Positions 715 to 51,973 of a DNA stretch of 64,000 nt are shown in pieces. How positions within the stretch are numbered: the stretch's first letter is position 1; every line of letters begins with the position of its first letter. Source of the stretch: Candidatus Terraquivivens tikiterensis (lineage in GTDB: Archaea > Thermoproteota > Nitrososphaeria_A > Caldarchaeales > Wolframiiraptoraceae); contig NDWU01000004.1 in the NCBI GenBank assembly GCA_003056285.1, forward strand, positions 21,228 through 85,227. The letters run 5' to 3'. The notes beneath the pieces were generated by a model. The model saw only the letters and a list, made by a program, of their open reading frames with translations. It was not told where the DNA came from and did no database searches. Made by a program: the position numbers and the translations under genes.

Positions 715-3576
715 TTGGGCGGCTCATCGAGCGAGGACGTCTTAGAGCTGTTGGCAAAGCCCGTCAGGATGGCCTTCGTTGAGAGGTTTGGAGAGCTGAC
801 GCCTCCTCAAATCGAGAGCATACCGAAGATACTGGAAGGCAAGAACCTTTTGCTGATGGCACCGACTGGTACGGGAAAGACAGAGGCCGCCCTCCTGCCC
901 ATACTAAGCAACTTATTACTAAACCCTGGGCTTCAAGGAATAAAGGTGCTCTACATAACTCCGCTCCGTGCCCTCAACAGGGACATGCTCGAAAGGTTCG
1001 ATTGGTGGGCTAAGAGGCTGGACATAAGGGTATCCGTCAGGCACGGCGATACTGCTGTCGCAGAGAGGAGGACCCAAACCCTAAGCCCACCAGATATACT
1101 GATAACCACACCCGAGACGCTCCAGGCAATCCTATGCGGGAAGGTTCTCAGGAAGCACCTTAAGGGCTTAAGGTGGGTCATCGTAGACGAGGTCCATGAG
1201 CTAGCGACGGACAAGAGGGGTGCTCAGCTCTCCATAGCCCTGGAGAGGCTCTTAGAGATAGTCGGCTCCGAGTTTCAGAGAATAGGCCTCTCTGCCACGG
1301 TCGGCAGCCCTGAGGTTGTAGCCAAGTTCTTGGTAGGGCCTGGAAGGGAGTGCGAGATAGTAAGGGTTCCTGTGGCAAAGGGCATGGCGATAGACGTCAT
1401 ATATCCTGTACCCGAGGAGGAGGATGCTGTACTGGCTGAGGAGCTTGCGATCCTGCCGGATGTAGCATCGAGGCTTAGGACGATAAGGAGGCTGGTGGAG
1501 TCGCACGGCTCGACGCTGATATTCACGAACACGAGGCCTTTGGCCGAGATACTGACAAACAGGTTCAGGGCATGGGACGAGGGGTTCAGCGTAGGGATAC
1601 ACCACGGCTCCCTCGCAAAGTCCGCCAGGATATCGACGGAGCAGGGCCTGAAGGCCGGTACGCTCCTGGGCATAGTCTGCACCTCATCCTTGGAGCTCGG
1701 GATAGACGTGGGCAGGATAGACCTATGCATACAGTACAACTCACCGAGGGAGGTGACGAGGCTAATCCAGAGGGTCGGCAGGAGCGGGCATAGCATAGGC
1801 AGGGTCGCGAAGGGTGTTATACTGGTCATGGATTCGGACGATGCCCTCGAGTCGATCGTGATAGCCAGGAGGGCAATGGCCGAGAGCCTAGAAGAGGTAA
1901 GGATACCGATGAACTGTCTTGACGTCCTGATGCACCAGCTGGCCGGCCTCCTTATAGAGTACGGTCGCGTAAGTGTCGAAGAGGCGCTGAGGATATTTAG
2001 ACGGGCTTACGGGTTCTCCGGGCTTGAAAGGGAAACGCTCGTAAAAGTCCTTGAGCACATGAGGGGGCTGAACATCTGCGCGCTTACGGATGACGGCTAC
2101 TTCCGGAAGCCCGTTAACCCTAAGCCACTCTACGACTACTACTTCGGAAACCTTTCCATGATACCAGAGGAGAGGCAGTACTTGGTCGTCGAAGAGAATA
2201 CCGATGAGCCCGTGGGAATACTGGACGAAGAGTTCGTGGCTGAGTACGGCGAGCCGGGTACGAGGTTCATACTCCTCGGCAGGGCATGGGAGATACTCAG
2301 CACGCTCGGCGAGAGGATCTACGTCAGGAAGCTGGAAGATTACGAGGGCGCTGTGCCATCTTGGGTGGGCGATGAGATACCGGTACCCTACGAGGTTGCG
2401 GAAGAGGTCGGCAGCCTAAGGGCGGAGTACGAGGAGCGCCTCCGTAAGGGCGATCCGCATGAGGTTATCTGTGCCGACATAGCGAGAAGGTACGGCGTAT
2501 CCTGGGACCTTATCTCTAGGAGCATGGCCGAGGTTAGGGCGCACATCGACTCGGGGATACCCGTGCCGACGAACAAGAGGATACTCCTGGAGAGGGCAGG
2601 GGATTACACGGTCATGCACGTACACGGAGGGCTGAGGGTGAACAGGACAATAGCCAAGGTTGTGTCCTACATGCTATCCGAGAAAATCGGAATGCCAGTC
2701 GCCGTCCAGCAAGACCCTTACAGGATAGTCATAAGGTCGAAGTACGTTTACCCGGAACTCGTCCTCGAGGCTATCAAGGGCTTGTCCGAAGAAAATTTCG
2801 GCGAGGTTCTAAGGAAGGCAATCGAAGGCTCGACGCTATTCAGGAGAAGGCTCGTTCATGTAGCAAGAAAGATGGGCGTCATAAGCAAAGAGGCGAGCAT
2901 ACTGGACGTCAGCCTTTCAAAGATCGCTGAGATGCTGAAGGGTACCGTTGCGTACGAAGAGGCGATGTCCTACTGCTTATTCCAGGACTTCGACGAAAGC
3001 GGAGCACGCGAGCTTCTCCGCTCAATACGCACGGGAAGTTACGAGCTAGTAACCTACGCGCCGCCCGATGCCGTTAGCCCATCACCCTTAGCGCTACTCA
3101 CGCTCTGGCGCTACAGAGAGGCTTACGAGGCTGTATCCTCTGATAGGATTGAAAGGCTTGTGCTCACGGCCGTGAGGGCAAGGCTTATGAACGAGGTCGG
3201 CGTTCTCGTATGCTCCGAATGCTATCAATACTTCGATAGGGTAGCGGTCAAGGAAGTTGGGGACGTGCCATCGTGCCCCGTATGCGGTTCTAGGAGGCTC
3301 GGCTTCCTAAAGGGCGAGGTGGAGGAAGTTTACGGCCTGATATCAAGAAAGGGCAAGCCGATAAGCAAGAGGGAAAGGGAGCTGCTAAAAGAGATAAAGA
3401 GGAGCTCGGAGTTGGTGGAAAGGTACGGGAAGGCGGCCCTCGTGGCGCTATCGGGAAAGGGCTTTACAGTTGGCGACGCAGCCAAGGTTTTAGAGAAAGA
3501 GGGGAGCCTAACGAATAGGCTAATACAATGCATAATCGAGGAGGAGAAAAAGAAGCTGGTTGCGAACTTCAGGTAG
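715..3576 (+). CDS. lhr: Lhr-type superfamily-2 DEAD/DEAH-box helicase with C-terminal Cys4 zinc ribbon
   Basis: 953-aa ORF with APTGTGKTE (Walker A), VIVDEVHE (DEVH), GLSAT and QRVGRSGH. It has the long C-terminal extension typical of Lhr-like proteins, ending in CSEC...CPVCG. Start is TTG at 715 or ATG at 769. Confidence 0.9.
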   Translation: MGGSSSEDVLELLAKPVRMAFVERFGELTPPQIESIPKILEGKNLLLMAPTGTGKTEAALLPILSNLLLNPGLQGIKVLYITPLRALNRDMLERFDWWAKRLDIRVSVRHGDTAVAERRTQTLSPPDILITTPETLQAILCGKVLRKHLKGLRWVIVDEVHELATDKRGAQLSIALERLLEIVGSEFQRIGLSATVGSPEVVAKFLVGPGRECEIVRVPVAKGMAIDVIYPVPEEEDAVLAEELAILPDVASRLRTIRRLVESHGSTLIFTNTRPLAEILTNRFRAWDEGFSVGIHHGSLAKSARISTEQGLKAGTLLGIVCTSSLELGIDVGRIDLCIQYNSPREVTRLIQRVGRSGHSIGRVAKGVILVMDSDDALESIVIARRAMAESLEEVRIPMNCLDVLMHQLAGLLIEYGRVSVEEALRIFRRAYGFSGLERETLVKVLEHMRGLNICALTDDGYFRKPVNPKPLYDYYFGNLSMIPEERQYLVVEENTDEPVGILDEEFVAEYGEPGTRFILLGRAWEILSTLGERIYVRKLEDYEGAVPSWVGDEIPVPYEVAEEVGSLRAEYEERLRKGDPHEVICADIARRYGVSWDLISRSMAEVRAHIDSGIPVPTNKRILLERAGDYTVMHVHGGLRVNRTIAKVVSYMLSEKIGMPVAVQQDPYRIVIRSKYVYPELVLEAIKGLSEENFGEVLRKAIEGSTLFRRRLVHVARKMGVISKEASILDVSLSKIAEMLKGTVAYEEAMSYCLFQDFDESGARELLRSIRTGSYELVTYAPPDAVSPSPLALLTLWRYREAYEAVSSDRIERLVLTAVRARLMNEVGVLVCSECYQYFDRVAVKEVGDVPSCPVCGSRRLGFLKGEVEEVYGLISRKGKPISKRERELLKEIKRSSELVERYGKAALVALSGKGFTVGDAAKVLEKEGSLTNRLIQCIIEEEKKKLVANFR

Positions 3577-4084: not shown

Positions 4085-4233
4085 TCGAGAAATATCTGAA
4101 GCCTAAGGAGGATAGACCGTAGAACTCTTTGGAAGTGGGTTAAGGAGGGCAAAATAAAGGCTGTTAGGCTTCCAAGTGGCAGGTATAGGTTTCCTGAAAG
4201 CGAGATTAGGCGGATACTGGAAGTTGGAAAATG
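4085..4233 (+). pseudogene. Remnant of a MerR/excisionase-type helix-turn-helix domain, as found at the N-terminus of IS607-type TnpA
   Basis: Start-less frame reads ...IDRRTLWKWVKEGKIKAVRLPSGRYRFPESEIRRILEVGK*. The upstream ATG at 4072 is in another frame and hits a stop after 16 codons. No recombinase catalytic domain follows. Confidence 0.4.
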
Positions 4234-5428
4234 ACTGCGGCAAAGTGCATTCAAATACCTATTGTTCCTTTAACAAGAAGGAAGGAAAGAACATTAAGCG
4301 AGTTGCTTAAAGCCTACAACGATATCGTTCAGCAAAGCATAGATTATGCTATAGAAATGGGGATAACGTCGAGGAAGAGGTTTCATGAAGCTTTGTATGA
4401 AAAATTGCGGGCAAAATATCCGAACTTAGCCTCACACTACATTCATAATAGCTTTGGGTATATGTAAAAGCTTCAGGAAACGTAAAAAACTGGGTTTGAC
4501 GAAAAAGGACAAACCCGAAGTTTCAAACTTAAACTCAATCATGCTCGATGATTACCACCTATTCAAGATTGAAGGTAAGGTTTTAAGGCTCAACATCGGC
4601 GGGGGGCATTTATATTTACCGTTAAAGCCTACAAGATTTCAAGAGCGGCTTCTGGAAGAAATTAGGCAGGGGGCTATGCTCGTCAAAAGGGGGATAGGTG
4701 GTTCTTAAATGCCACGATAAAGCGTGATGTTCAGCCTTATGAGCCTATTGGTGTTATGGCATACGACATAAACGAGAAGAGCGTGGATGCCTTATTAGTA
4801 AAGGAGGAGAAAACCGAATGGATACATATAGACATAAGCGAGGCCAAGCACATACAGAAGAGGTATCAAGAAATTAGAGAGAGGAAACGCAAATATATTA
4901 AAGGCAAAGCTGGAAGGAAGGTAAACAACATCCTCCACGTTGCCACCAAGTTTCTGGTCGAGAAAGCACTTGAGGAGAAGGTTGCGATTGTAACGGAGGA
5001 TATCAAAGGCATCAATAAGGGTATTAACAGGAAGGGAAAAGGTATAAGGCGAAGGTTGAATTTATGGTCTCATGGAAAGGTCAGGTTTCAAATGAATTAC
5101 AAAGCGAATTGGCTTGGAGTCCCAAGGCTTAAAAGATGTGGACGCTAAAAACAATTCCAAGACCTGCCCGATATGTGGGGAAATAAGAGCCCGAAGGGGC
5201 TGGTCTTTTAAATGTAAAAGGTGTGGATATGAAGCATCAAGCCATCTAATAGCCTGCATAAACATCGTTAAGAAAGCCCTACCTCAGATGAGCCGAGTAG
5301 GCATACCGTTCTCGGCGAAAGCCCTAGTATCCCTATCCCCTAAGCGGCTCGTAGCCACAGTGAAGGGGATAGTGGATGTGAGGGAAAACCTCCATAGACA
5401 AATGGTTATAAACATCTATGGAGGTTAG
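4231..5428 (+). pseudogene. tnpB: tnpB (IS605 OrfB-type RNA-guided nuclease) disrupted by three frameshifts
   Basis: ORFs 4231-4467, 4454-4708, 4756-5148 and 5114-5428 are colinear with TnpB: N-terminal region, then YKSFRKRKK, then RuvC-I (GVMAYDINE), then the Zn finger CPICG...CKRCG. Frame changes fall near 4455, near 4690 (A4G5 run) and near 5125. The RuvC-III position reads YEASSHLIACINIV, so the expected DRD Asp is missing. Confidence 0.85.
5389..5424 (+). repeat. Perfect 10-bp inverted repeat (hairpin) overlapping the 3' end of the tnpB pseudogene
   Basis: CCTCCATAGA (5389-5398) pairs with TCTATGGAGG (5415-5424), leaving a 16-nt loop. The position matches where IS200/IS605 right-end and omegaRNA scaffolds lie. 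Confidence 0.7.
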
Positions 5429-5442
5429 AACGGTTTGTTTGA

Positions 5443-6042
5443 TTAGGTTCTCCCCTCTGACCCATCTTTTTGTTGGGTGGGCGATATGTCCATTATGGCT
5501 TTAAGCAGCTCCTTTTCATCCACCTCCGCCAGCGCCCTCCACCCTACCTTGATCGTGTTATCCTCGGCCCTTGTAAGGTAGCCTTTCCTGATGAACCGTT
5601 CTATAGCTGCCTCCACCTTCCACCTCGGAAGCTTTACCTCGATGAGCTCTACCAGCTCCTTCTCCGAGGCCCTACCACCCTTTGTGAATAGATAGGAGAG
5701 CGCTGCCGCCAGTACGGCCACATCCTCTATGTTCCAGCCCGCGGCCACGATGTCGGCGACCGAGAGCGGCTCGGAAAGCGTTACGAAAAACCTGGCCCTA
5801 TCAAAATCCTCCTCTGCCGGGCTACCCCCTAAAGGCTGGTCGAACATTATCTTTACCCTAAGGCCTATGCTGTTCAGCTTGCTGTTCAGGGCGTCGATTA
5901 TCTTCAGGTAATTCCTACCAAGCCTCCTACGTAGCTCCCAACCCCTGACGCCAGGAAGCCTGTGGCTCGAGAAGAGGAGCATGCTGGCTGCTATCGCTAA
6001 CTTCCTGCCTGCCCGTTCGGTTTCGCCCTTTTCCTCATCCAA
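5443..6042 (-). CDS. ScpB-like / KITE-like tandem winged-helix protein, third gene of the SMC-like operon
   Basis: 199 aa. The N-terminal LAIAASMLLFSSHRLPGVRGWELRRRLG resembles the ScpB A.LF.s..pls motif. A second WH-like region is LSYLFTKGGRASEKELVELI...FIRKGYLTRAEDNTIKVG. It overlaps the upstream gene by 8 nt. Confidence 0.6.
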   Translation of the reverse strand: MDEEKGETERAGRKLAIAASMLLFSSHRLPGVRGWELRRRLGRNYLKIIDALNSKLNSIGLRVKIMFDQPLGGSPAEEDFDRARFFVTLSEPLSVADIVAAGWNIEDVAVLAAALSYLFTKGGRASEKELVELIEVKLPRWKVEAAIERFIRKGYLTRAEDNTIKVGWRALAEVDEKELLKAIMDISPTQQKDGSEGRT

Positions 6043-6811
6043 GACCCTTGGGCACCTCTCCGCCCTTTATAGAGACCACGAGGGCCGTTATTTTCTCTCT
6101 TTTTTTCTTCGAGGGGTAAGGTACCACCTTCAACTCTCCCGTAATGGGATTCTTCCTTATATCTGCCAAGCCTTCCGTGACCAAGAAGCTAAGCACGTAC
6201 GCCCTCCACACAACACCCTCGAAGGTTTCGGCGCTCACCAAAGACCAATAGTCCACCTCGCCTTTGCTCCCTGCCATCCTGATGCACGCTTCGTGCATCT
6301 TCTTTATTTCCTCTTCCAGCTCTACACCCTTCGCGTATCCGATCTGGTGCGTAATCTGCAGCCCTTCCCTCGTTAGCGGGAGCTTCTCAAGAGCCCTATC
6401 CCTCGGAGGTAGCATCAAGAAGTATTCCATCCCCTGCCTCAACCTGTAGGGCGTGATCTGCTCCGCTCTGACGATGGGTCTCCAGCTCCTAGCAAGCGCA
6501 GCAGCAAGCTGCCTCGGGTCTGCAGACGCTATCTTTAGAGACACGAGCTGACTGTCTATGAAGAGCGATGAAGCCCTCTCCTTTAACCACTTCTGTTGAA
6601 GAGATATCAGGACGGCTATCCTGTATAGCGTCTCGGCGTCAAGGACTATAGTATCCAGGTCCTTCTGTTCCTCCAGTATACGTCTTAACCTTGCCAAGAG
6701 TTCCTTCACGTTAACGGAGAAAGGGTCTAAGCCCCTCCTCTCGATGGACTCGCAAAGCGCCATTATCCTCTCCAGCTCTTCCCTGCTCACCACCTTTTTT
6801 CCGTATGACAT
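6035..6811 (-). CDS. ScpA-like kleisin
   Basis: 258 aa. The N-terminal GLDPFSVNVKELLARL resembles the ScpA N-domain. The C-terminal EGVVWRAYVLSFLVTEGLADIRKNPITGELKVV resembles the ScpA C-terminal winged helix (FLALLEL.K.g.i...Q). It lies 6 nt downstream of the SMC-like gene. Confidence 0.65.
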   Translation of the reverse strand: MSYGKKVVSREELERIMALCESIERRGLDPFSVNVKELLARLRRILEEQKDLDTIVLDAETLYRIAVLISLQQKWLKERASSLFIDSQLVSLKIASADPRQLAAALARSWRPIVRAEQITPYRLRQGMEYFLMLPPRDRALEKLPLTREGLQITHQIGYAKGVELEEEIKKMHEACIRMAGSKGEVDYWSLVSAETFEGVVWRAYVLSFLVTEGLADIRKNPITGELKVVPYPSKKKREKITALVVSIKGGEVPKGLG

Positions 6812-6817
6812 GCCGCT

Positions 6818-8605
6818 TTACCTTTCCAACAAGCCTACAGACGACCTTCCGCTCACGTTTTGAACGATGATCACGTTTGTGTCCTCATCGACGTTTATGT
6901 AACCTGGCGTGATTATTATATACTGGACGGATGGGTCTGCCTTGGCCGTTGCGGTCAGCATCCTTACCATCCTCTCCCTGTTTAAGGGGTCTAAGTGAAC
7001 GTCGAACTCATCGACGGCCCTGAAGGGCGACTTAACGTGCTTCTGGAGCGCGAGAAGGAATGCGAGCGTTGCCACTATCCTCTCGCCGCCGCTTTGCGTG
7101 TGGGAGTCTAGGAGTACGGGCTCGACACCCCTGAAGCCCACGTAAAGGTCGATGGATGCTTTCTCAAGGTCCTCCAGGTTACGTAGAGATATCTTGCCGT
7201 TTGCGTCTACAGATTTCAATATCTGAACGTAGGCAGGCTCGACCTCTGCCACGAGCTTCCTCAAGAATTCCCTCCAAACCCCCTTCCTATGCTCTACCTC
7301 CTCCCTTGCTTTCTCTATGTTCTCGGATAGCTGCTTGGCCTTCATCTCGACCTCGCTGTACTTGGCATCCGCAAGTATGTACATCTCTTCGGCATTCAGC
7401 GTCACGCTGCCCAAGGAGTTCATCTGGACTTCCAAGAGCTTCAGGTCCTCTTGAATCTCTGCCGGTTTTCTATTCGTTTCGACACGGGGTCCTTTCAGCT
7501 CCGCCTCAGACATCTGGTATGCAAGCTTTGTCTTCAGCTCGCTCAGCTGGGACCTTAGCTTCTTCATCTCGGACTCTATCAGACGTGCCTTGAACCTTGC
7601 GATCCCCTCTTGGACCTTCTCGTCAACGAGCTCGTCTATCAAACCTTCTATCTTTTTTTCTAAATCGTCTAAAAGCTCGGGCGTTCTTGAGCCTTCCTCT
7701 CTTAGCCTACGTATCGTATCGCGAATCCTATCCCGAAGCTTTCCGGCCTCAGAAGCATGCTCTTTAGACTCCTTGTCCAGATCCTCAACCTCCAAGGCAA
7801 GGGATGCGACCTTATCCTCGATCCTCTTTATGTCGTTCTCCAAATTTATGACCTGGGACCAAGCGAGCTCCCGCTCAAGCTCAACCTTATGGGCTTCAAG
7901 CCTCTTAAGCTTCATGAGCTTCTCGTACTCTTCCCTCCAATACTCGACCGTGGCCCTAGCCTCCTCAAGCGTCCTCTTGAGGCTAACCTCCTCTGTCAGG
8001 AGCATATTCAGCTTAGCCTCGGCATCTATTATCCTCTCCCTGAGGCGCGCCGCACCCACAGCATCCTCGACCATCTGGAGCTTCTCGACGCTGCTCTTGG
8101 TCACGAACTGCTCTATCATATTCTGGTGCATCACGATGAGCATGTTGTTAGGGTTGATGCCTACTTGCTTGAGCAGGTGCTCGACCTCAGCCTTCGTCAT
8201 GAACCTGTTGTTCACGTAGTGCCAATAGTCTCCGTTCCTTTTGAGGTACCTTGAAACTGACACAGTGTCCGTGTTTATCGTCCTAAAAGGCCTTCTACCG
8301 TCCCTGGCACCGTTGTTGAACACGACAGTGACCCTGGCGACGTCCTTCCCACGGCGTATCAGGTCGCTTAGACGCTCACCCCTCTCAGTGTATGTCTGCC
8401 CGAGGGCCACGGACAAACCTAGGAGTATTGAGGACTTTCCAGCACCGTTTGGTCCCATTATGACGTTGAGGCCGGGCTTAAACGGTATTCTGGAGTACTC
8501 ATGAGACATGAAGTTTTCTAGGATTACCTCCTTTATGTGCGGAAGATGCTCGGCCCTCTGTTCCAGCTCAAGCCTATCCGCAGACAGCCCGTCAGCGTTC
8601 TCCAC
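6818..8605 (-). CDS. Short SMC-family ATPase (595 aa) with Smc5/6- or Sph-like head motifs, short coiled coil, and no hinge or hook
   Basis: GTG start preceded by GGGAGGAG. Motifs are Walker A GPNGAGKSS, N-terminal ILENFMSH, signature HTQSGGERIV and Walker B/D-loop SPFRAVDEFDVHLD. About 270 aa of heptad-like E/K/L-rich sequence separates the head halves. There are no Cys residues. Confidence 0.8.
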   Translation of the reverse strand: MENADGLSADRLELEQRAEHLPHIKEVILENFMSHEYSRIPFKPGLNVIMGPNGAGKSSILLGLSVALGQTYTERGERLSDLIRRGKDVARVTVVFNNGARDGRRPFRTINTDTVSVSRYLKRNGDYWHYVNNRFMTKAEVEHLLKQVGINPNNMLIVMHQNMIEQFVTKSSVEKLQMVEDAVGAARLRERIIDAEAKLNMLLTEEVSLKRTLEEARATVEYWREEYEKLMKLKRLEAHKVELERELAWSQVINLENDIKRIEDKVASLALEVEDLDKESKEHASEAGKLRDRIRDTIRRLREEGSRTPELLDDLEKKIEGLIDELVDEKVQEGIARFKARLIESEMKKLRSQLSELKTKLAYQMSEAELKGPRVETNRKPAEIQEDLKLLEVQMNSLGSVTLNAEEMYILADAKYSEVEMKAKQLSENIEKAREEVEHRKGVWREFLRKLVAEVEPAYVQILKSVDANGKISLRNLEDLEKASIDLYVGFRGVEPVLLDSHTQSGGERIVATLAFLLALQKHVKSPFRAVDEFDVHLDPLNRERMVRMLTATAKADPSVQYIIITPGYINVDEDTNVIIVQNVSGRSSVGLLER

Positions 8606-9074
8606 TTTCTGTGTTCTCCTCCCTTGCCTTTGGTTTTAACCCCAGTATATTTGGATTATTGAGGATGATACTTAAAGATGCGAATCTTAGAACTTCGGGG
8701 AGAGACGAGACTTATATCTTTGGCCATAGCCCGTTGACTGTTCTTTTTTGTTACTCTGTGAGGTATGCCGTTTACCATTTTTCTTATGGATAGAGCGTTG
8801 GGGGTTGGAGGTCTACTTGATCAGCCTTTCCTCCTGACGAGCATCTTACGTCGCTGACCTTCAGTAAAGCCCTAGCCTCCTTGGGATGATGGGGTCTCGT
8901 AAGACTTGCTGGCGCTAACTTCCTTGATTGTTAAGATCTTGACGTAAGCATTCTCCGCACGCATAGGAGGTATAGGTTAACTTTGGTCAAGCTTGTGGCG
9001 TGCGTGCAGCTATGAGCGCTTCCGGAGGGGCGTAAGCTATTACGTACAACCACTGTGCGTTTGTATCGATACGA

Positions 9075-11481: not shown

Positions 11482-11994
11482 TTATCTAAGCTTCTTCAGG
11501 CAGCGTGCGCACGGCATGTAACCCTTGACGTCCGTGTCGTATATCCAGTTGCTGAAGCGCATTACGCATTTTGGTTCGTGGCAGTGCTGGAGTCCCAAGA
11601 GGTGCCCGACCTCATGGCATGCCTCCTTGATTATCCTCTCACGATAAAGCGACTCGTCGTGGGGTAAGCCGTAAAACTTTGGGTCGAGTCTGTAGGTGGA
11701 AACTACGGCAACGCCCTTCAAGGCTATGCCGAAGCAGTAGTTCAGACCGGGAGCGTAGATGTCCACGTCGACCAAGGCCAGCAGGAGCTCATCATCCCCC
11801 TTCATTTTAGAAAGTATTTCGGCCAAGGAAACGGCGTTGTGCTGCCTTCGCAGAGCGTTAAAGCTTTGGGGTGTAACGCTGAACGTCCCCTCGTCTACCG
11901 TAACGTCGAGCCGATAAACCTCCTTTATACGCTCTGCGACGTCTTCGGCGATGCTTCCTAAAACCGTTGACCGGATTACCCTTAGCTTCCGCAT
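11482..11994 (-). CDS. amzA: Archaemetzincin-type zinc metallopeptidase
   Basis: 170 aa with HEVGHLLGLQHC followed by CVM....C..C, the archaemetzincin HExxHxxGxxHC plus Cys4 pattern. Confidence 0.85.
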   Translation of the reverse strand: MRKLRVIRSTVLGSIAEDVAERIKEVYRLDVTVDEGTFSVTPQSFNALRRQHNAVSLAEILSKMKGDDELLLALVDVDIYAPGLNYCFGIALKGVAVVSTYRLDPKFYGLPHDESLYRERIIKEACHEVGHLLGLQHCHEPKCVMRFSNWIYDTDVKGYMPCARCLKKLR

Positions 11995-17271: not shown

Positions 17272-18150
17272 ATGACGCTAAAGCTGCTTTTCGAGCGCGC
17301 AAATTTGCTCAAGCAGAGGCTAAAGCAAGAGGGCGGCGAGATGCATGCGGCATGGCTCAGTAGGGCGAGGGACGTCTGGAGGCCGTACCGGCCCAGCATA
17401 TGCGGGAGGAGCATCGCGGCCGTCGATAGCGGTTGGAACTACATGACGTACGGCGGCTTCTACCTGTATGCGATTAGGGCGGTTGCGGTAGCACCTTCCT
17501 CGGAAGACGTTACGGAGCCCTTCGTCGATGTGGACATAGTGCCCATGGAGGCTGAGGGCTCGGGCATAAGCCCTGAATTGTACATAAAGGGGCTGGCCGA
17601 GTGCTACGAGCACGACTTAGCTTCAAGGGCATCAAAGTTTTTAGACATCGTGTTGGTAGATGGGTCGATTTTGGCGAGGCTTAACATGGCAGACGCCCTC
17701 AAGAGGGCCAGGCTCTTCAGGGAATACGCCGTTCACGTGAGGCCGCTGAAGGACGTCAAGAACGTCCTATTCGTCTCGAAATATTCCCAGGACAGGAGCC
17801 TTATAAAAGGAGCGCTCGGAGACGTCTACTACATAAACAGGGCAACGAGGAGTATCGGGTACACGGAGCCCATAGCATCCGAGAGGGATGGGATGAGGGT
17901 ATCTGTCTTTTATATGAGGTTATCAGAAAATTCCGACGCGGTACACGTCGAGGTCCCAGCCATCGTGGACTCTGATTACGTTGAGTCGATGATAGATGCG
18001 CTGCACGGCACGGCCGTCAAGGGATACCCTTATCCCCTCATCGTTGCCCACAGCATGGCCTCTGTCGACGACGGCCTCATGGAAATGGTTGCGGAGGCCG
18101 CAGGCCTAGCAGTCCTCCCGACGTCGAGGGAGGTTCTCGAGGTTGGTTGA
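17272..18150 (+). CDS. nurA: NurA-type nuclease
   Basis: ~292 aa, immediately upstream of and overlapping herA. It has an acidic motif IAAVDSG and VLVDGSIL. The call rests partly on operon context. Start is ATG 17272 or TTG 17266. Confidence 0.7.
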   Translation: MTLKLLFERANLLKQRLKQEGGEMHAAWLSRARDVWRPYRPSICGRSIAAVDSGWNYMTYGGFYLYAIRAVAVAPSSEDVTEPFVDVDIVPMEAEGSGISPELYIKGLAECYEHDLASRASKFLDIVLVDGSILARLNMADALKRARLFREYAVHVRPLKDVKNVLFVSKYSQDRSLIKGALGDVYYINRATRSIGYTEPIASERDGMRVSVFYMRLSENSDAVHVEVPAIVDSDYVESMIDALHGTAVKGYPYPLIVAHSMASVDDGLMEMVAEAAGLAVLPTSREVLEVG

Positions 18151-19624
18151 GGTCGGCATAGTGGTCGGCGAGGCGACGCCCGAGAGGATACGTTTCTTCA
18201 CGAAGGATGCCGTGAGGGTTGGGGAGTTCGTCGTAGCGGATACGGAGGATGGTCAGGTCCTATACCTGGTCGAGGCATCTAGGCTTGAGAGCAAGCTCCT
18301 TTCGAGGGCCGGCGACTACATAACGGCTACGGAGGCAAAGGAGGCCAGCAAGGCCAACCCGAGGGACACCGTGAGGTACTGCGTAGCAAGGGCCATTGGG
18401 TTGGTCAGGGGAGTCTTAGAGGGCAGGCGCGTTTACCCAACGCTACCGCCGGAGCCAGGATCCCCCGTATTCTTAGCAGAGGACGATCTGCTTAGGAGGA
18501 TATTCCACAACGACTCTAGGGAGTGGGCGGTGGTCGGAAGGTTGCTTAGAAGGGAAGGTGTGGCCGTTTCTGTCAACTTGAACAAGGTTGCTTCGAGGCA
18601 TCTCGCGATATTGGCAGCTACAGGTAAGGGTAAGTCAAACCTTTTGGCGCTCATAGCAAAGAGGATAGCGGAGAAGAACGGGACGATGGTGGTCTTGGAC
18701 TATCATGCCGAGTACGGGAACCTGAGGGTCAAAAAGGCGAAGTTCATAAACCCGAGAATAAACCCAAGACGGCTGGACTCCGAGGAGCTGGCGGAGATGC
18801 TCGAGATAAGGCCCGACGCGACGAAGCAGAGGGAGGTGCTAAGGAGGGCGTACACAAAGCAGGTGGCGAGGTCGCCGAACTTCTGGGAGGCGCTAAAGGA
18901 GAACGTTCAGAATATCGGAGAGGTTGACCACCAAACGAGGAGCACGGCTGAGAGGGTATTGGAGATAATCGATAGGGGGCTCGCAACTAAGGGAAACATA
19001 TTCGATACCGAGGCGGAGAGCCCGCTCGCCCTCATCGAGCCCAATAGGATAAACGTACTAGACCTGTCGGAGTTTACTGAGACCCAAGCCCAGATAATCG
19101 TCGCACACTACCTAGCGGAAATCCTTAACGACAGGAAGAACGCGACGCTCGGCAGGAGCGCCAGGTTCAGGTCACCCGTGGTCGTAGCGGTCGAGGAGGC
19201 TCATACCTTCCTACCGCAGGAAAAGCGTTCTAAATGCTCTGACGTACTGGCCAGGATAGCAAGGGAGGGCAGAAAGTTTGGGGTTTCGTTGATCCTGGTT
19301 TCGCAGAGGCCGTGTAAGCTGGATGCTGACGTGGTGAGCCAGATGGGAAGCTTCGCCATATCCGGCCTAACACACCCGAGGGACCAAAGCTTCGTCATGG
19401 AAGTAACGGATGAGGTCTCGACGGAGTTGGGAGCATCCCTCCCAAGCCTCAACACCGGCGAGATGATACTCGCGGGTCAATGGGTGACTGTGCCGGCGCT
19501 AGTTAAGGTAGACCTAGTAGAAGAGAAACTCTTGGGAAAGGATTTGGATGCGATAGGGATGTGGGCCGAGGAGGCTGGCATGGGACGGAAGGCTGTTTCG
19601 ACGGAGGAGCTCATAAAGCTATGA
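18143..19624 (+). CDS. herA: HerA hexameric DNA translocase/helicase
   Basis: 493 aa with Walker A ILAATGKGKSN and Walker B VVVAVEEAH. The TTG start overlaps the nurA stop (TTGGTTGA). Confidence 0.85.
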   Translation: MVEVGIVVGEATPERIRFFTKDAVRVGEFVVADTEDGQVLYLVEASRLESKLLSRAGDYITATEAKEASKANPRDTVRYCVARAIGLVRGVLEGRRVYPTLPPEPGSPVFLAEDDLLRRIFHNDSREWAVVGRLLRREGVAVSVNLNKVASRHLAILAATGKGKSNLLALIAKRIAEKNGTMVVLDYHAEYGNLRVKKAKFINPRINPRRLDSEELAEMLEIRPDATKQREVLRRAYTKQVARSPNFWEALKENVQNIGEVDHQTRSTAERVLEIIDRGLATKGNIFDTEAESPLALIEPNRINVLDLSEFTETQAQIIVAHYLAEILNDRKNATLGRSARFRSPVVVAVEEAHTFLPQEKRSKCSDVLARIAREGRKFGVSLILVSQRPCKLDADVVSQMGSFAISGLTHPRDQSFVMEVTDEVSTELGASLPSLNTGEMILAGQWVTVPALVKVDLVEEKLLGKDLDAIGMWAEEAGMGRKAVSTEELIKL

Positions 19625-20736
19625 TCATCGGGCACATGTCGGATACGCACCTTGGAGCCTATGCAGGAAGGGACGAGGAGAGGGAGGAGGACTACTACGA
19701 TGCGTTCAGGGAGGCCATAGAGCTGTTCATAAAGGACCGCGTCGGGCTTGTCATACATTCGGGCGATATACTCGACACACCAAAGCCGTATGGAACCGCC
19801 ATGAAGGTTCTTGTGGAGGGGGTTAAGCGGCTGGATGAGAAGGGCATAAGGTTCCTCTTTACGCTGGGAGAGCACGACATATCCAACGTTCCCAGCACGC
19901 CCCACCCCTACATACTTGACGTCATAGGCGTTGCCAACTACGTTGGAAAAGGCGAGCCGCTGGTTGTCGGCGACGTAACCGTTGTAGGTCTTCACAAGTA
20001 CAAGAGAACGGATGCGGATAGGTTACACGAAAGGCTAAAGGAGGTTGCCGAGAAGGCGAGGCAAGCCGATGGGAAGAAGAAAGTACTCGTGCTGCACCAG
20101 GGACTCCATGGGTTACACGAGTTTGTTGGCGAGCTGTCGAGGGACGAAATCCCGATGGGGTTCGACTACTATGCCATGGGACACTTCCACGTCTCCTACA
20201 AGTTTAGGCACGGTGGCGGGCTGGGTGCTTACCCAGGGGCAACCCACTGGGTGAGCTGGAGAGACCCGGATGAATCCTTCGTCAACATAGTCGACCTTTC
20301 TGGCGACGAGCCGACGATAAGCCATGTTAGGCTGAAGTCCGTAAGGCCTAAGATGGAGAGGCATTCAAAGCTCGAGGCGCTAAGCGATGTTATCGAGGAG
20401 CTCGTATCGTCCGTGCAAGAGGCCCATAAGAAGCCCTGCCTCTTACTAAACGTAGAGGCAAGCAGGCCTTTTGACCCTAGGCCGTTCGAGGATGCGCTAA
20501 GGAGCCGCTATATTGTCACGGTTAAGCAGACCTTGAAGGAGGCGGGTGCTGAGGTTCTACATGAGGTACCCGACGTGGATGCTGAGCTTATGAGGTTGGC
20601 GGAAAACGCTATGGGTAGCAGGGAGAAGGCCGAGTTTGCGCTTCTCGAGCTGCTCAGGGTCCTAAACGGAGACGATTGGAGGAAGGAGGCGCTCGAGCTC
20701 ATCTGGAGGGTCTTCAAGGAGGGGAGGCTGAGATGA
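19621..20736 (+). CDS. mre11: Mre11 nuclease
   Basis: Phosphoesterase motifs DTHLG, GDILD, GEHD (usually GNHD), LHQG and GHFH. ATG 19621 overlaps the herA stop (ATGA). The ORF-track start at 19561 is rejected. Confidence 0.85.
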   Translation: MIIGHMSDTHLGAYAGRDEEREEDYYDAFREAIELFIKDRVGLVIHSGDILDTPKPYGTAMKVLVEGVKRLDEKGIRFLFTLGEHDISNVPSTPHPYILDVIGVANYVGKGEPLVVGDVTVVGLHKYKRTDADRLHERLKEVAEKARQADGKKKVLVLHQGLHGLHEFVGELSRDEIPMGFDYYAMGHFHVSYKFRHGGGLGAYPGATHWVSWRDPDESFVNIVDLSGDEPTISHVRLKSVRPKMERHSKLEALSDVIEELVSSVQEAHKKPCLLLNVEASRPFDPRPFEDALRSRYIVTVKQTLKEAGAEVLHEVPDVDAELMRLAENAMGSREKAEFALLELLRVLNGDDWRKEALELIWRVFKEGRLR

Positions 20737-51950: not shown

Positions 51951-51973
51951 CGCCTCAAACCCTGGTGGGTCTT

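What the first reader, a model, noticed from the sequence alone, without database searches (positions are those of the whole stretch)
5443..8605. Miniature SMC-kleisin-KITE-like operon with a hinge-less, Cys-free 595-aa ATPase carrying Smc5/6-like head motifs
Three minus-strand genes are packed as one unit, with a 6-nt gap and an 8-nt overlap.

The 595-aa ATPase:
- It has Walker A GPNGAGKSS, signature HTQSGGER and Walker B SPFRAVDEFDVHLD.
- The strings ILENFMSH...NVIMGPNGAGKS and SGGER...SPFR.VDEFDV resemble what I recall of Smc5/Smc6 and haloarchaeal Sph-type heads more than canonical Smc.
- Only ~270 residues of coiled-coil-like sequence separate the two head halves. That is too short for a ~150-aa hinge plus long arms.
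- There is no Cys, so no zinc hook.

The partner proteins:
- The next gene (258 aa) has ScpA-like N- and C-terminal features.
- The third (199 aa) looks like two winged helices of the ScpB/KITE type.

A complete SMC/kleisin/KITE set in this shortened format is not a standard annotated system. Its role (chromosome organisation, repair or plasmid restriction) is open. It sits directly beside a dead IS element.
Basis: partly seen in the sequence, partly recalled or inferred. Interest (0 to 1): 0.7.

Follow-up and report, generated by a model that had tools for sequence, protein, structure and literature searches.

The report
Hinge-less archaeal SMC5/6-like three-gene operon
This is a real three-gene operon for a small archaeal relative of the eukaryotic SMC5/6 DNA-maintenance complex; the gene family is already published, but its very short arms and missing dimerising "hinge" seem not to have been described.

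Summary
Three tightly coupled minus-strand genes encode a 595-aa SMC ATPase, a 258-aa kleisin and a 199-aa KITE-like protein.

The organism is Candidatus Terraquivivens (Nitrososphaerota, formerly Aigarchaeota). More than 100 orthologues of 548-685 aa rule out an assembly artefact.

- **ATPase:** it is closer to eukaryotic Smc5/Smc6 (117-140 bits) than to canonical SMC (58-88 bits) or this genome's own Rad50 (30 bits), and it shares Smc5/6-specific head motifs.
- **Arm:** a confident AlphaFold model (pLDDT 88.5) shows a plain coiled-coil hairpin of about 118 residues (about 17 nm) ending in a 5-residue loop. There is no hinge and no zinc hook.
- **Partners:** they are Nse4-like and Nse1/Nse3 (MAGE)-like, not ScpA/ScpB-like.

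This operon type, the "SMC5/6-related" SMC + Nse4-related kleisin + Nse1/3-like kite of TACK and Asgard archaea, is already described by van Hooff et al. (bioRxiv 2024/25) and Yoshinaga & Inagaki (2021). A Caldarchaeales genome serves as one of their examples. The locus is therefore a member of a known family that has been studied only by computation.

Two points appear undescribed. Most of this archaeal family is hinge-less and miniature, while relatives with the same operon keep a hinge. A third sub-group carries a central CxxC motif.

Function is inferred: an ATP-gated DNA clamp acting in repair or replication.

The parts
6818..8605 (-). 595-aa SMC-family ATPase, Smc5/6-related, hinge-less. 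N-head is residues 24-183, the coiled-coil hairpin 186-464 and the C-head 468-595.
   Evidence: Pfam SMC_N 1.8e-37. Best PDB sequence hits are yeast and human Smc5 and Smc6. AF2 pLDDT 88.5, pTM 0.68. Foldseek top hits are the Pyrococcus Smc head+joint construct 5xei, then Smc5/6 heads.
8432..8455 (-). Walker A, GPNGAGKS (residues 51-58).
   Evidence: Read from the translation. Nearly invariant in 45 homologues.
7214..8050 (-). Antiparallel coiled-coil arm (residues 186-464). The outgoing helix is 186-303. The return helices are 309-371, 381-397 and 405-464, with joint-like breaks.
   Evidence: AF2 secondary structure. All length variation among 45 homologues maps to one point after residue 305.
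7682..7696 (-). Apex loop (residues 304-308, EGSRT), where a hinge or zinc hook would sit.
   Evidence: AF2 model. This is the least conserved segment, mean column conservation 0.19. No Cys.
7079..7093 (-). ABC signature SGGER (residues 505-509), preceded by Q504 as in Smc5.
   Evidence: S505-G506-G507-E508 are invariant.
6989..7024 (-). Walker B / D-loop FRAVDEFDVHLD (residues 528-539), Smc6-like.
   Evidence: Motif table.
6035..6811 (-). 258-aa kleisin, Nse4-related. N-terminal helical domain, poorly ordered middle, C-terminal winged helix.
   Evidence: Family profile against PDB: yeast Nse4 4.4e-5, human NSE4/EID3 0.0036, then ScpA C-domains. 12/31 homologues hit Pfam Nse4_C. AF2 model and Foldseek.
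6116..6334 (-). Kleisin C-terminal winged-helix domain (about residues 160-232), the expected SMC-head 'cap' binder.
   Evidence: pLDDT 74-91. Foldseek match to Pyrococcus ScpA C-WHD 4i99_C with TM(target) 0.81 and rmsd 2.3; also Scc1-C, RAD21-C and Nse4.
5443..6042 (-). 199-aa KITE-type partner, Nse1/Nse3 (MAGE)-like.
   Evidence: Own Pfam hits: MAGE 0.011, Nse1 0.087. 14/30 homologues hit MAGE and 12/30 hit Nse1. Profile A4 against PDB: Nse3/MAGE 7dg2_C 0.0076, yeast Nse3, human NSE1 twice. An identical protein is named 'MAGE domain' in UniRef. The fold was not modelled here.
8606..8680 (-). Upstream region with a GGGAGGAG Shine-Dalgarno-like element about 10 nt before the GTG start and A/T-rich TATA-like stretches further up. 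Putative promoter and leader.
   Evidence: Read directly from the sequence. Inference only.
715..3576 (+). Context: 953-aa Lhr-type helicase, convergent with the operon. It recurs next to this operon in distant archaea.
   Evidence: Pfam DEAD, Helicase_C, WH_Lhr, DEAD_assoc. Also adjacent in L004 (HR01), L005 (Thermofilales) and L088 (hinge-bearing relative).
4231..5428 (+). Context: frame-broken TnpB (IS200/IS605-type) remnant between the operon and the Nudix and Lhr genes.
   Evidence: Four ORFs of 78, 84, 130 and 104 aa. Cas12f1-like TNB domain, 8.2e-9.

Best explanation
The three genes encode the archaeal 'SMC5/6-related' complex. This is a second SMC complex, inherited vertically in TACK and Asgard archaea, and separate from the canonical Smc-ScpAB that the literature reports for this order.

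**Shown**
- The ATPase is a true SMC head with Smc5/6-type motifs.
- Its arm is a plain hairpin of about 118 residues (about 17 nm). The apex is not conserved and varies in length. There is no hinge and no hook.
- The second gene is a kleisin with Nse4 affinity and a C-terminal winged helix.
- The third gene has Nse1/Nse3 (MAGE) affinity.
- The trio, and its tight gene spacing (overlaps of 1-20 nt, abutting genes or a 1-nt gap), is conserved in the Nitrososphaerota (former Aigarchaeota/Thaumarchaeota) loci and in hinge-bearing relatives. In Thermofilales the trio is conserved, but a gap of about 470 nt separates the ATPase and kleisin genes.

**Inferred**
- Two ATPase subunits engage their heads around two ATP.
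- One kleisin links the neck of one subunit to the cap of the other.
- A KITE dimer sits on the middle of the kleisin.
- DNA is clamped on top of the engaged heads, as in the DNA-bound Smc5/6, MukBEF and Smc-ScpAB structures.
- With no hinge, the space between the arms would be open at the top unless the apices pair. The complex would then act as an ATP-gated DNA clamp or sensor rather than a long-range loop extruder.
- The likely role is in repair or replication-fork processing. This rests on the analogy with Smc5/6 and on the recurrent Lhr helicase neighbour.
For: **ATPase identity**
- SMC_N 1.8e-37.
- Top PDB sequence hits are Smc5 (1.4e-34) and Smc6.
- In a library of 1.84 billion representatives, every complete (900 aa or longer) hit outside the family among the best 150 scored 117 bits or more. 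The three checked against the PDB were Smc6, Smc6 and Smc5.
- Direct phmmer scores are 117-140 bits for 41 long proteins outside the family, mostly eukaryotic-type Smc5/6 by motif, 58-88 for nine canonical SMCs and 30 for the window's Rad50.
- Motifs shared with Smc5/6 but not with canonical SMC: NFM(S/C/T)(H/Y), GKS-S/A, QSGGER, PFRxxDEFDV and Q(Y/F)xxITP.

**Architecture**
- AF2 pLDDT 88.5.
- The best structural match is an engineered Smc 'head + joint' construct, 5xei.
- No CxxC in 45 homologues, and a single insertion point at the apex. Apex conservation is 0.19.

**Partners**
-.

**Operon conservation**
- L001-L005 and L086-L089.
- The partners of the hinge-bearing relative P0327 (982 aa) are homologous: hhalign 99%, E about 1e-18.

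**Housekeeping context**
- L004 is flanked by ribosomal protein and eIF genes.
- The upstream NAD kinase / PIN / Peptidase_M54 neighbours are conserved in L002 and L086.

**Literature**
-.
Against: - The mechanism is untested. No multimer model or biochemistry was available, so stoichiometry, DNA clamping and the absence of apex dimerisation are all inferences.
- My own distance tree could not resolve Smc5/6 against canonical SMC affinity. Head identities are about 27-28% to both, so the phylogenetic placement rests on bit scores, motifs and published trees.
- All KITE evidence is below Pfam's curated cut-offs, and its fold was not modelled.
- The ATPase also scores 214 bits against the archaeal-type SMC model TIGR02169. 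NCBIfam has no Smc5/6 model to compare with.
- The presence of canonical Smc-ScpAB in this genome was not checked directly. It is only reported for the order.
- The Lhr neighbour is present in only 4 of 9 distinct contexts.
Confidence: 0.8

Rival explanations
1. It is an anti-plasmid or anti-virus defence module. A short SMC-like ATPase senses foreign DNA, as in Lamassu (LmuB) or Wadjet, or as eukaryotic Smc5/6 does when it restricts extrachromosomal DNA.
For: PADLOC profiles for mad3 (3.7e-32) and LmuB (7.1e-28, aligned over the full length of a 611-position profile) match the ATPase. LmuB-type proteins have a similar size and short arms. A TnpB remnant lies next door. Eukaryotic Smc5/6 and Wadjet do restrict extrachromosomal DNA (general knowledge).
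Against: - The kleisin has no PADLOC hit and the KITE protein only a marginal winged-helix one (WH_III-A, E = 0.04).
- No effector gene (LmuA or JetD-like nuclease) is adjacent in any of the loci examined.
- The operon sits among core housekeeping genes with conserved flanks and appears once in each locus examined.
- Partner affinities are Nse4 and Nse1/3, not LmuC or JetA/B.
Confidence: 0.08
2. It is simply this lineage's main condensin: a shortened, divergent Smc-ScpAB that organises and segregates the chromosome.
For: The ATPase scores 3e-63 against TIGR02169 (SMC_prok_A). JGI annotates homologues as 'chromosome segregation protein'. The top Foldseek hit is Pyrococcus Smc. The kleisin C-domain superposes best on the ScpA C-WHD.
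Against: - The 214-bit score is far below the 729-bit cut-off.
- Bit scores and motifs favour Smc5/6 over nine canonical SMCs.
- There are no ScpA or ScpB Pfam hits among 61 partner homologues.
- Published tables list ScpB-like kites in all three sampled Caldarchaeales genomes, and a ScpA-like kleisin and a separate canonical-type SMC each in two of the three. HR02 carries both complete trios.
Confidence: 0.07
3. It is a Rad50-, ASRP- (ClsN/Sph) or RecN-type SMC-related ATPase whose neighbours only look like a kleisin and a KITE by chance.
For: NCBIfam gives sub-threshold hits to Rad50 models, ASRP (profile length 593, similar to this protein) and RecN. RecN is similar in size and also lacks a hinge (general knowledge).
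Against: - ASRP scores 68 bits against 300, Rad50 83 or less against 700 or more, and RecN 25 against 408.
- ASRPs and Rad50 are defined by a zinc hook, which is absent here (PMC9389158).
- The genome's own Rad50 lies in the same window next to HerA and scores only 30 bits against this protein.
- Rad50 structures first appear at rank 32 in Foldseek.
- Both partner genes are conserved, and the kleisin is placed in its superfamily by profile and fold while the KITE assignment rests on weaker sequence hits.
Confidence: 0.02

Closest known systems
Archaeal SMC5/6-related complex (SMC5/6-related SMC + Nse4-related kleisin + Nse1/3-like kite operon) of TACK and Asgard archaea: van Hooff, Raas, Tromer & Eme, bioRxiv 10.1101/2024.01.07.573240; 'SMC5/6-related aSMC' of Yoshinaga & Inagaki 2021 (PMC8665677)
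   Same: Same three genes in the same order and same taxonomic range. A Caldarchaeales genome (HR02) is one of their example clusters. Here the SMC shows Smc5/6 affinity, the kleisin Nse4 affinity and the KITE Nse1/3 affinity.
   Different: No difference in kind; this locus is a member. Those papers deal with phylogeny and synteny. In the text and supplements I could search, they do not say that most members are about 550-685 aa with no hinge. No member has been studied experimentally.
Eukaryotic Smc5/6 holocomplex (Smc5-Smc6-Nse4-Nse1-Nse3 plus Nse2, Nse5/6)
   Same: Head motifs (NFM.., QSGGER, PFRxxDEFDV, ITP). Nse4-like kleisin. MAGE/Nse1-like KITE. Best sequence matches in the PDB.
   Different: There is one SMC gene, so a homodimer is presumed instead of a heterodimer. 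The arm is about 17 nm with no hinge, whereas the solved Smc5 and Smc6 chains are about 1,070-1,160 aa, roughly twice this protein's length, and Smc6 has a solved hinge-region structure (5mg8). There is one KITE gene rather than Nse1 plus Nse3. No Nse1 RING, Nse2 SUMO ligase or Nse5/6 genes lie at the locus.
Canonical prokaryotic Smc-ScpAB
   Same: SMC head fold with neck and joint. The best structural match is the Pyrococcus Smc head-joint construct. The kleisin C-terminal winged helix superposes on the ScpA C-WHD. The overall SMC/kleisin/KITE logic and operon layout are the same.
   Different: No hinge. The arm is about one third of the 49 nm reported for Smc (PMC5526789 abstract). The partners hit no ScpA or ScpB family. 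Bit scores to canonical SMC are lower than to Smc5/6.
Hinge-bearing and CxxC-bearing members of the same archaeal family (P0327 982 aa, P0361 835 aa; P0295, P0299, P0302 about 1,016-1,047 aa)
   Same: Same head family (166-412 bits). P0327 and P0361 sit in the same trio. P0327's partners were shown to be homologous.
   Different: P0361 has a Pfam SMC_hinge (4.6e-11), and P0327 aligns to that hinge. P0295, P0299 and P0302 have a central, conserved C-D-K-C-G motif like a Rad50 zinc hook, and P0295 has no adjacent kleisin or kite. The window's protein has neither.
'Hinge-less' SMC variants of marine Actinobacteria (PMC12153180)
   Same: A natural SMC-family protein with heads and coiled coil but no hinge.
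   Different: It is a bacterial, canonical-SMC-derived lineage. Kleisin is not mentioned anywhere in that paper's main text. It is unrelated to the Smc5/6 branch.
ASRP family (coalescin ClsN, Sph1/2; PMC9389158) and Rad50
   Same: Archaeal SMC-superfamily ATPases of similar or somewhat larger size with shortened arms.
   Different: They are defined by a zinc hook, which is absent here. The ASRP model scores 68 bits against a cut-off of 300. No consensus gene neighbourhood was found for ASRPs, whereas this family has a fixed kleisin-KITE operon.

Membership tests
Archaeal SMC5/6-related complex (van Hooff et al.; Yoshinaga & Inagaki) | The SMC ATPase groups with eukaryotic Smc5/Smc6 rather than with canonical SMC. 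| tested here: met
   phmmer gives 117-140 bits to 41 long proteins outside the family (mostly eukaryotic-type Smc5/6), 58-88 to nine canonical SMCs and 30 to Rad50. Long non-family hits in the best 150 of the full library belong to Smc5/6 where checked. Smc5/6-specific motifs are shared. My crude NJ tree was inconclusive, so a proper ML tree is still needed.
Archaeal SMC5/6-related complex (van Hooff et al.; Yoshinaga & Inagaki) | An Nse4-related kleisin is encoded next to the SMC. | tested here: met
   The genes are separated by 6 nt. Profile against PDB: yeast Nse4 4.4e-5, human NSE4 0.0036. 12/31 homologues hit Nse4_C. The C-terminal winged helix matches kleisin C-domains.
Archaeal SMC5/6-related complex (van Hooff et al.; Yoshinaga & Inagaki) | An Nse1/Nse3-like (MAGE-type) kite is encoded next to the kleisin: sequence affinity. 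| tested here: met
   8-nt overlap. MAGE 0.011 and Nse1 0.087 for the protein itself. 14/30 and 12/30 homologues hit MAGE and Nse1. Four of the top five PDB profile hits are Nse3 or Nse1, best 0.0076. All hits are below curated thresholds, so they are weak individually but agree with each other.
Archaeal SMC5/6-related complex (van Hooff et al.; Yoshinaga & Inagaki) | The kite has a tandem winged-helix fold and binds the kleisin. | not tested
No multimer tool was available.
Archaeal SMC5/6-related complex (van Hooff et al.; Yoshinaga & Inagaki) | It coexists with a separate condensin/cohesin-related SMC-ScpA-ScpB set in the same genome. | not testable with these tools
   No canonical SMC lies in the 64-kb window. 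The genome-wide scan was swamped by the generic Walker A pattern. The literature lists ScpB-like kites in all three sampled Caldarchaeales genomes, ScpA-like kleisins and canonical-type SMCs each in two of them, and both complete trios in HR02.
Canonical SMC (Smc-ScpAB) | A central hinge dimerisation domain. | tested here: not met
   No SMC_hinge hit. AF2 shows a 5-residue apex loop.
Canonical SMC (Smc-ScpAB) | ScpA and ScpB family partners. | tested here: not met
   None of 31 and none of 30 partner homologues hit ScpA or ScpB in Pfam at E <= 0.1. The ScpA C-domain appears only as a weaker PDB profile hit (0.045).
Eukaryotic Smc5/6 holocomplex | An Smc5-Smc6 heterodimer joined by hinges, plus Nse1 (RING), Nse2 and Nse5/6. 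| tested here: not met
   There is a single SMC gene and a single kite gene at the locus, no hinge and no RING, SUMO-ligase or solenoid genes in the flanks. These genes were not searched for genome-wide.
ASRP (ClsN / Sph) family | Zinc-hook CxxC at the coiled-coil apex, and membership of the ASRP clade. | tested here: not met
   No Cys. NF045487 ASRP scores 68.2 bits against a cut-off of 300.
Rad50 | Zinc hook, and Rad50 equivalog score. | tested here: not met
   No CxxC. The best Rad50 model scores 82.9 bits against a cut-off of 1000. The window's own Rad50 (20676-23009) sits beside HerA.
Lamassu (LmuB SMC-like ATPase with LmuA effector and LmuC) | LmuB together with LmuA effector and LmuC partner genes. 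| tested here: not met
   The LmuB profile matches the ATPase (7.1e-28). The 258-aa protein has no PADLOC hit and the 199-aa protein only a marginal winged-helix one (WH_III-A, 0.04). No effector gene is present in any locus.

The most novel reading that the evidence does not exclude
Within one orthologous SMC5/6-related operon family, the dimerising apex has been remodelled at least twice. Some members keep a hinge (P0327, P0361). Some carry a Rad50-like CxxC hook (P0295, P0299, P0302). Most, including this one, have lost any apex module and kept only an arm of about 17 nm while retaining kleisin and KITE.

If the hinge-less form truly lacks apex dimerisation, it is a natural minimal SMC. It would work as an ATP-gated head/kleisin/KITE DNA clamp, without a closed SMC ring and without long arms. 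That would bear directly on what hinges and arms are needed for in Smc5/6-type complexes, and on what the ancestor of eukaryotic Smc5/6 looked like.
Probability: 0.35. Interest if true: 0.65.

Novelty: new member of a known kind. Interest (0 to 1): 0.42.

Why it matters
The archaeal SMC5/6-related complex is the proposed ancestor-side relative of eukaryotic Smc5/6. The basic mechanism of Smc5/6 is still debated.

This locus shows that the common archaeal form is a thermophile-encoded, three-subunit, presumably homodimeric complex. Its SMC has arms about one third of normal length and no hinge. Such a complex is an attractive minimal system for structural and biochemical work on three questions: DNA clamping, the role of the arms and hinge, and kleisin/KITE function.

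It also affects evolutionary scenarios. If short forms are derived, the hinge was lost after the duplication that gave the two archaeal SMC complexes. If they are ancestral, the Smc5/6 hinge needs another explanation.

For annotation, the two partner genes are currently labelled 'hypothetical' in NCBI records. They could be named Nse4-like kleisin and Nse1/3-like kite.

Tried and rejected
1. **Genome scan.** The single genome-contig scan with the ATPase alignment was dominated by the generic Walker A pattern. It returned mostly canonical bacterial SMCs. Only two family loci (L005 Thermofilales, L006 Thaumarchaeota UBA160) were useful. It could not show whether this genome also has a canonical smc-scpAB.
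2. **Tree.** A neighbour-joining tree on 311 head columns (one search failed to return) did not resolve the relationship. Identities to Smc5/6, canonical SMC and Rad50 are all about 27-28%, and canonical SMCs nested inside the archaeal family. I treat it as uninformative and rely on bit scores, motifs and published ML and Bayesian trees.
3. **Hinge segment.** A PDB sequence search with the putative hinge segment of P0327 found nothing relevant. The hinge assignment rests on its alignment to P0361's Pfam-detected hinge.
4. **Distant partners.** Pfam scans of kleisin and kite proteins from four distant loci gave only one weak Nse4_C hit and one weak MAGE hit.
5. **Rejected readings.** Assembly artefact or truncation is rejected because there are many orthologues of the same length. 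Rad50, ASRP and RecN identity is rejected. A Lamassu- or Wadjet-type defence system is rejected because there is no effector and the context is housekeeping.
6. **Not used.** The sigma-70 promoter scanner was not run because the organism is an archaeon.

Full report
**1.

One search lists three minus-strand ORFs exactly as described:
- 6818-8605, 595 aa, GTG start;
- 6035-6811, 258 aa;
- 5443-6042, 199 aa.

A 6-nt gap separates the first two and an 8-nt overlap joins the last two. The translation carries Walker A GPNGAGKS (residues 51-58), signature QSGGER (504-509) and Walker B FRAVDEFDVHLD (528-539). It contains no cysteine.

A GGGAGGAG element lies about 10 nt upstream of the GTG start, with A/T-rich stretches further up. 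This fits a single leadered transcript, but that is only inference.

The neighbouring 'dead IS' is a TnpB gene broken into four ORFs (4231-5428). The last ORF keeps a Cas12f1-like TNB domain.

**2. Organism, and why the short length is real**

The 199-aa protein is 100% identical to a protein of Candidatus Terraquivivens tikiterensis. This organism belongs to the Wolframiiraptoraceae, Nitrososphaerota, formerly called Aigarchaeota.

- The ATPase has 1,878 homologues at E <= 1e-3, and the 120 best are 561-642 aa apart from one fragment.
- The identical gene occurs on an independent contig.
- In an exhaustive HMMER search of 1.84 billion representatives, 25 of the 30 complete family representatives are 700 aa or shorter, with a median of 640.

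An assembly artefact is therefore excluded.

**3. What the ATPase is**

- **Family.** Pfam assigns SMC_N at 1.8e-37. By sequence, the best solved structures are yeast Smc5 (1.4e-34), human Smc5 and Smc6, and only then Pyrococcus Smc.
- **Whole-library ranking.** After the family's own members, the complete (900 aa or longer) hits in the best 150 scored 117 bits or more. The three I checked against the PDB are Smc6, Smc6 and Smc5 orthologues.
- **Direct scores.** phmmer gives 117-140 bits for 41 long proteins outside the family (mostly eukaryotic-type Smc5/6 by motif), 58-88 for nine canonical archaeal and bacterial SMCs, and 30 for the Rad50 in the same window.
- **Motifs.** The family shares NFM(S/C/T)(H/Y), GKS followed by S or A, QSGGER, PFRxxDEFDV and Q(Y/F)xxITP with Smc5/Smc6. 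Canonical SMCs instead have (G/N)FKSF, GKSN, (L/M/I)SGGE, PFYxxDE(V/I)(D/E)A and QFxV(V/I)(S/T)(L/H).
- **Tree.** My own NJ tree was uninformative, because identities are about 27-28% to all outgroups. Formal phylogenetic placement rests on the published analyses.
- **Rejected families.** ASRP scores 68 bits against a cut-off of 300. Rad50 models score 83 or less against 700-1087. RecN scores 25 against 408.

**4. Architecture**

With a 45-sequence alignment, AlphaFold2 gives mean pLDDT 88.5 and pTM 0.68:
- head halves at residues 24-183 and 468-595;
- one continuous helix, 186-303;
- a 5-residue loop, 304-308;
- return helices 309-371, 381-397 and 405-464, whose breaks resemble the SMC 'joint'.

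The arm is about 118 residues, roughly 17 nm. B. subtilis Smc is quoted at 49 nm (abstract of PMC5526789).

The best Foldseek match is an engineered Pyrococcus 'Smc head with coiled coil and joint' construct (5xei, E = 1.4e-26). Smc5 and Smc6 heads follow, and Rad50 first appears at rank 32.

Across 45 homologues, essentially all length variation (up to 83 of about 100 inserted alignment columns) falls at one point after residue 305, and none has CxxC. The apex is the least conserved part, 0.19 against 0.61-0.67 for the heads. The protein is therefore a natural head + neck + joint + short hairpin SMC with no recognisable apex dimerisation module.

**5. The partners**

*258-aa protein (kleisin).*
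- It has no Pfam hit of its own, but 12 of 31 homologues hit Nse4_C, best 9.9e-7.
- The family profile finds yeast Nse4 (4.4e-5), human NSE4/EID3 (0.0036), and then ScpA C-domains (0.045, 0.13) in the PDB.
- Its AF2 model is mediocre overall (pLDDT 66) but confident over residues 160-240.
- That region superposes on kleisin C-terminal winged helices: Pyrococcus ScpA 4i99_C with TM(target) 0.81 and rmsd 2.3, plus Scc1-C, RAD21-C and B. subtilis ScpA-C. Full-length RAD21 and Nse4 chains also rank in the top four.

*199-aa protein (KITE).*
- It hits MAGE (0.011) and Nse1 (0.087) weakly.
- 14 of 30 homologues hit MAGE and 12 of 30 hit Nse1.
- An enlarged profile finds Xenopus Nse3/MAGE (0.0076), yeast Nse3 and human NSE1 twice among its top five PDB hits.
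- UniRef already calls the identical protein 'MAGE domain-containing'.

No ScpA or ScpB family appears for any of the 61 homologues at E <= 0.1. The partners are thus Nse4-like and Nse1/3-like. The KITE evidence is individually weak but consistent, and its fold was not modelled.

**6. Conservation of the operon**

The trio recurs in these loci:

| Locus | Source | Sizes (aa) |
|---|---|---|
| L002/L003 | Caldarchaeum | 580 + 255 + 195 |
| L004 | archaeon HR01 | 579 + 260 + 203 |
| L086 | 357-kb JGI metagenome contig carrying P0077 (taxon not given) | 588 + 250 + 195 |
| L087 | unassigned metagenome contig | 621 + 262 + 191 |
| L005 | Thermofilales | about 590 + 247 + 197 |

Gene spacing is tight in all but the last: overlaps of 1-20 nt, abutting genes or a 1-nt gap. 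In L005 a gap of about 470 nt separates the ATPase and kleisin genes.

Two longer relatives sit in the same operon:
- P0327 (982 aa) in L088, with partners of 251 and 180 aa;
- P0361 (835 aa) in L089, with partners of 211 and 167 aa.

P0361 has a Pfam SMC_hinge (4.6e-11), and P0327 aligns to that hinge (E = 1e-11). The kleisin and kite of P0327 are clearly homologous to those here: hhalign 99%, E about 1e-18. So hinge-bearing and hinge-less SMCs share one orthologous operon.

A third sub-group (P0295, P0299, P0302; 1,016-1,047 aa) has a conserved central C-D-K-C-G motif resembling a Rad50 zinc hook. P0295 has no kleisin or kite next to it.

The flanks are housekeeping genes: ribosomal proteins, eIF-6 and prefoldin in L004, and NAD kinase, PIN and Peptidase_M54 in L002 and L086.

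**7. Comparison with the literature**

- Yoshinaga & Inagaki (2021) found 'SMC5/6-related' archaeal SMC homologues in TACK archaea branching at the base of Smc5+6. Their 2022 paper separates these from the zinc-hook ASRP family.
- van Hooff et al. [quoted passage not shown] One has an SMC5/6-related SMC, an Nse4-related kleisin and an Nse1/3-like kite.
- Their example table includes the Caldarchaeales genome HR02 with both trios.
- Their presence/absence table lists Caldarchaeum and NZ13-MG1 with SMC5/6-type subunits alongside ScpA- or ScpB-like ones.

I found no mention of the short, hinge-less format in that paper or its supplements, or elsewhere in the searchable library. The only 'hinge-less SMC' report concerns an unrelated marine actinobacterial clade.

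**8. How it most likely works**

*Shown:* an intact SMC ATPase active site, a kleisin with the cap-binding winged helix, a KITE-type partner, and tight gene spacing (6-nt gap, 8-nt overlap) compatible with translational coupling.

*Inferred from established SMC structural biology:*
- Two ATPase subunits engage their heads on ATP.
- The kleisin bridges the neck of one to the cap of the other.
- A KITE dimer binds the kleisin middle.
- DNA is clamped on the engaged heads.

Without a hinge and with a non-conserved apex, the inter-arm space is probably open. I therefore favour an ATP-gated DNA clamp or sensor over a ring that entraps DNA or extrudes long loops.

A role in repair or replication-fork processing is suggested by two things. 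One is the analogy with Smc5/6. The other is an Lhr-type helicase, which sits directly convergent to the kite gene in HR01 and Thermofilales, a few kb downstream in L088, and in this window separated only by a Nudix gene and the TnpB remnant. That is 4 of 9 distinct contexts, so it is a lead and not proof.

A defence role of the Lamassu or Wadjet kind is the main functional rival. It lacks an effector gene and a mobile context (and the locus tables).

**9. Verdict**

The system is a member of a published but experimentally untouched family. The residual novelty lies in two things: the hinge-less, about 17-nm-arm architecture that dominates the archaeal SMC5/6-related family, and the apex diversity (hinge, CxxC or bare hairpin) within it.

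Noticed in passing
P0295, P0299, P0302 (relatives); locus L085:2105-5248: Three members of the same SMC5/6-related family, 1,016-1,047 aa long, carry a conserved central C-D-K-C-G (CxxC) motif at about the mid-point, like a Rad50 or ASRP zinc hook. P0295 has no kleisin or kite gene beside it. This may be convergent replacement of the hinge by a hook.
   Followed up: partly
window 715-3576 (+); L004:9064-11916; L005:3951-6155; L088:10599-11962: An Lhr-type helicase (DEAD, WH_Lhr, DEAD_assoc) recurs immediately downstream of, or convergent to, the kite gene in distant archaea. This is 4 of 9 distinct contexts examined. In this window a Nudix gene and a TnpB remnant are wedged between them.
   Followed up: partly
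window 18143-19624 (+) and 20676-23009 (+): A HerA helicase gene and a 777-aa Rad50-type ATPase gene (SMC_N, SbcC_Walker_B) lie about 12 kb from the operon. This is probably the archaeal HerA-Mre11-Rad50-NurA repair cluster. The intervening ORFs were not examined.
   Followed up: partly
window 4231-5428 (+): A TnpB (IS200/IS605-type, Cas12f1-like TNB domain) gene is broken into four ORFs of 78, 84, 130 and 104 aa. A fragment of another TnpB-type gene (Cas12f1-like TNB domain, 172 aa) lies 3.7 kb upstream of the operon in L086 (778-1296).
   Followed up: partly
window 11482-11994 (-): This 170-aa ORF contains HEVGHLLGLQHC, which looks like an archaemetzincin (Peptidase_M54). The same family lies just upstream of the operon in L002 and L086, suggesting an old conserved neighbourhood that insertions have interrupted here. 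The window ORF was not scanned against Pfam.
   Followed up: no
P0381 (1,043 aa) and P0404 (998 aa): Two long relatives scoring about 120-128 bits have atypical motifs (for example NFKNY, PFYILDEPDAHLD, VISPQ). They fit neither the Smc5/6 pattern nor the canonical SMC pattern. Their origin was not determined.
   Followed up: no
window 31898-33742, 51965-53917, 59404-61194 (+): Ordinary housekeeping genes: aldehyde:ferredoxin oxidoreductase, an NFACT-family protein and an aIF5B/IF-2-type GTPase.
   Followed up: no
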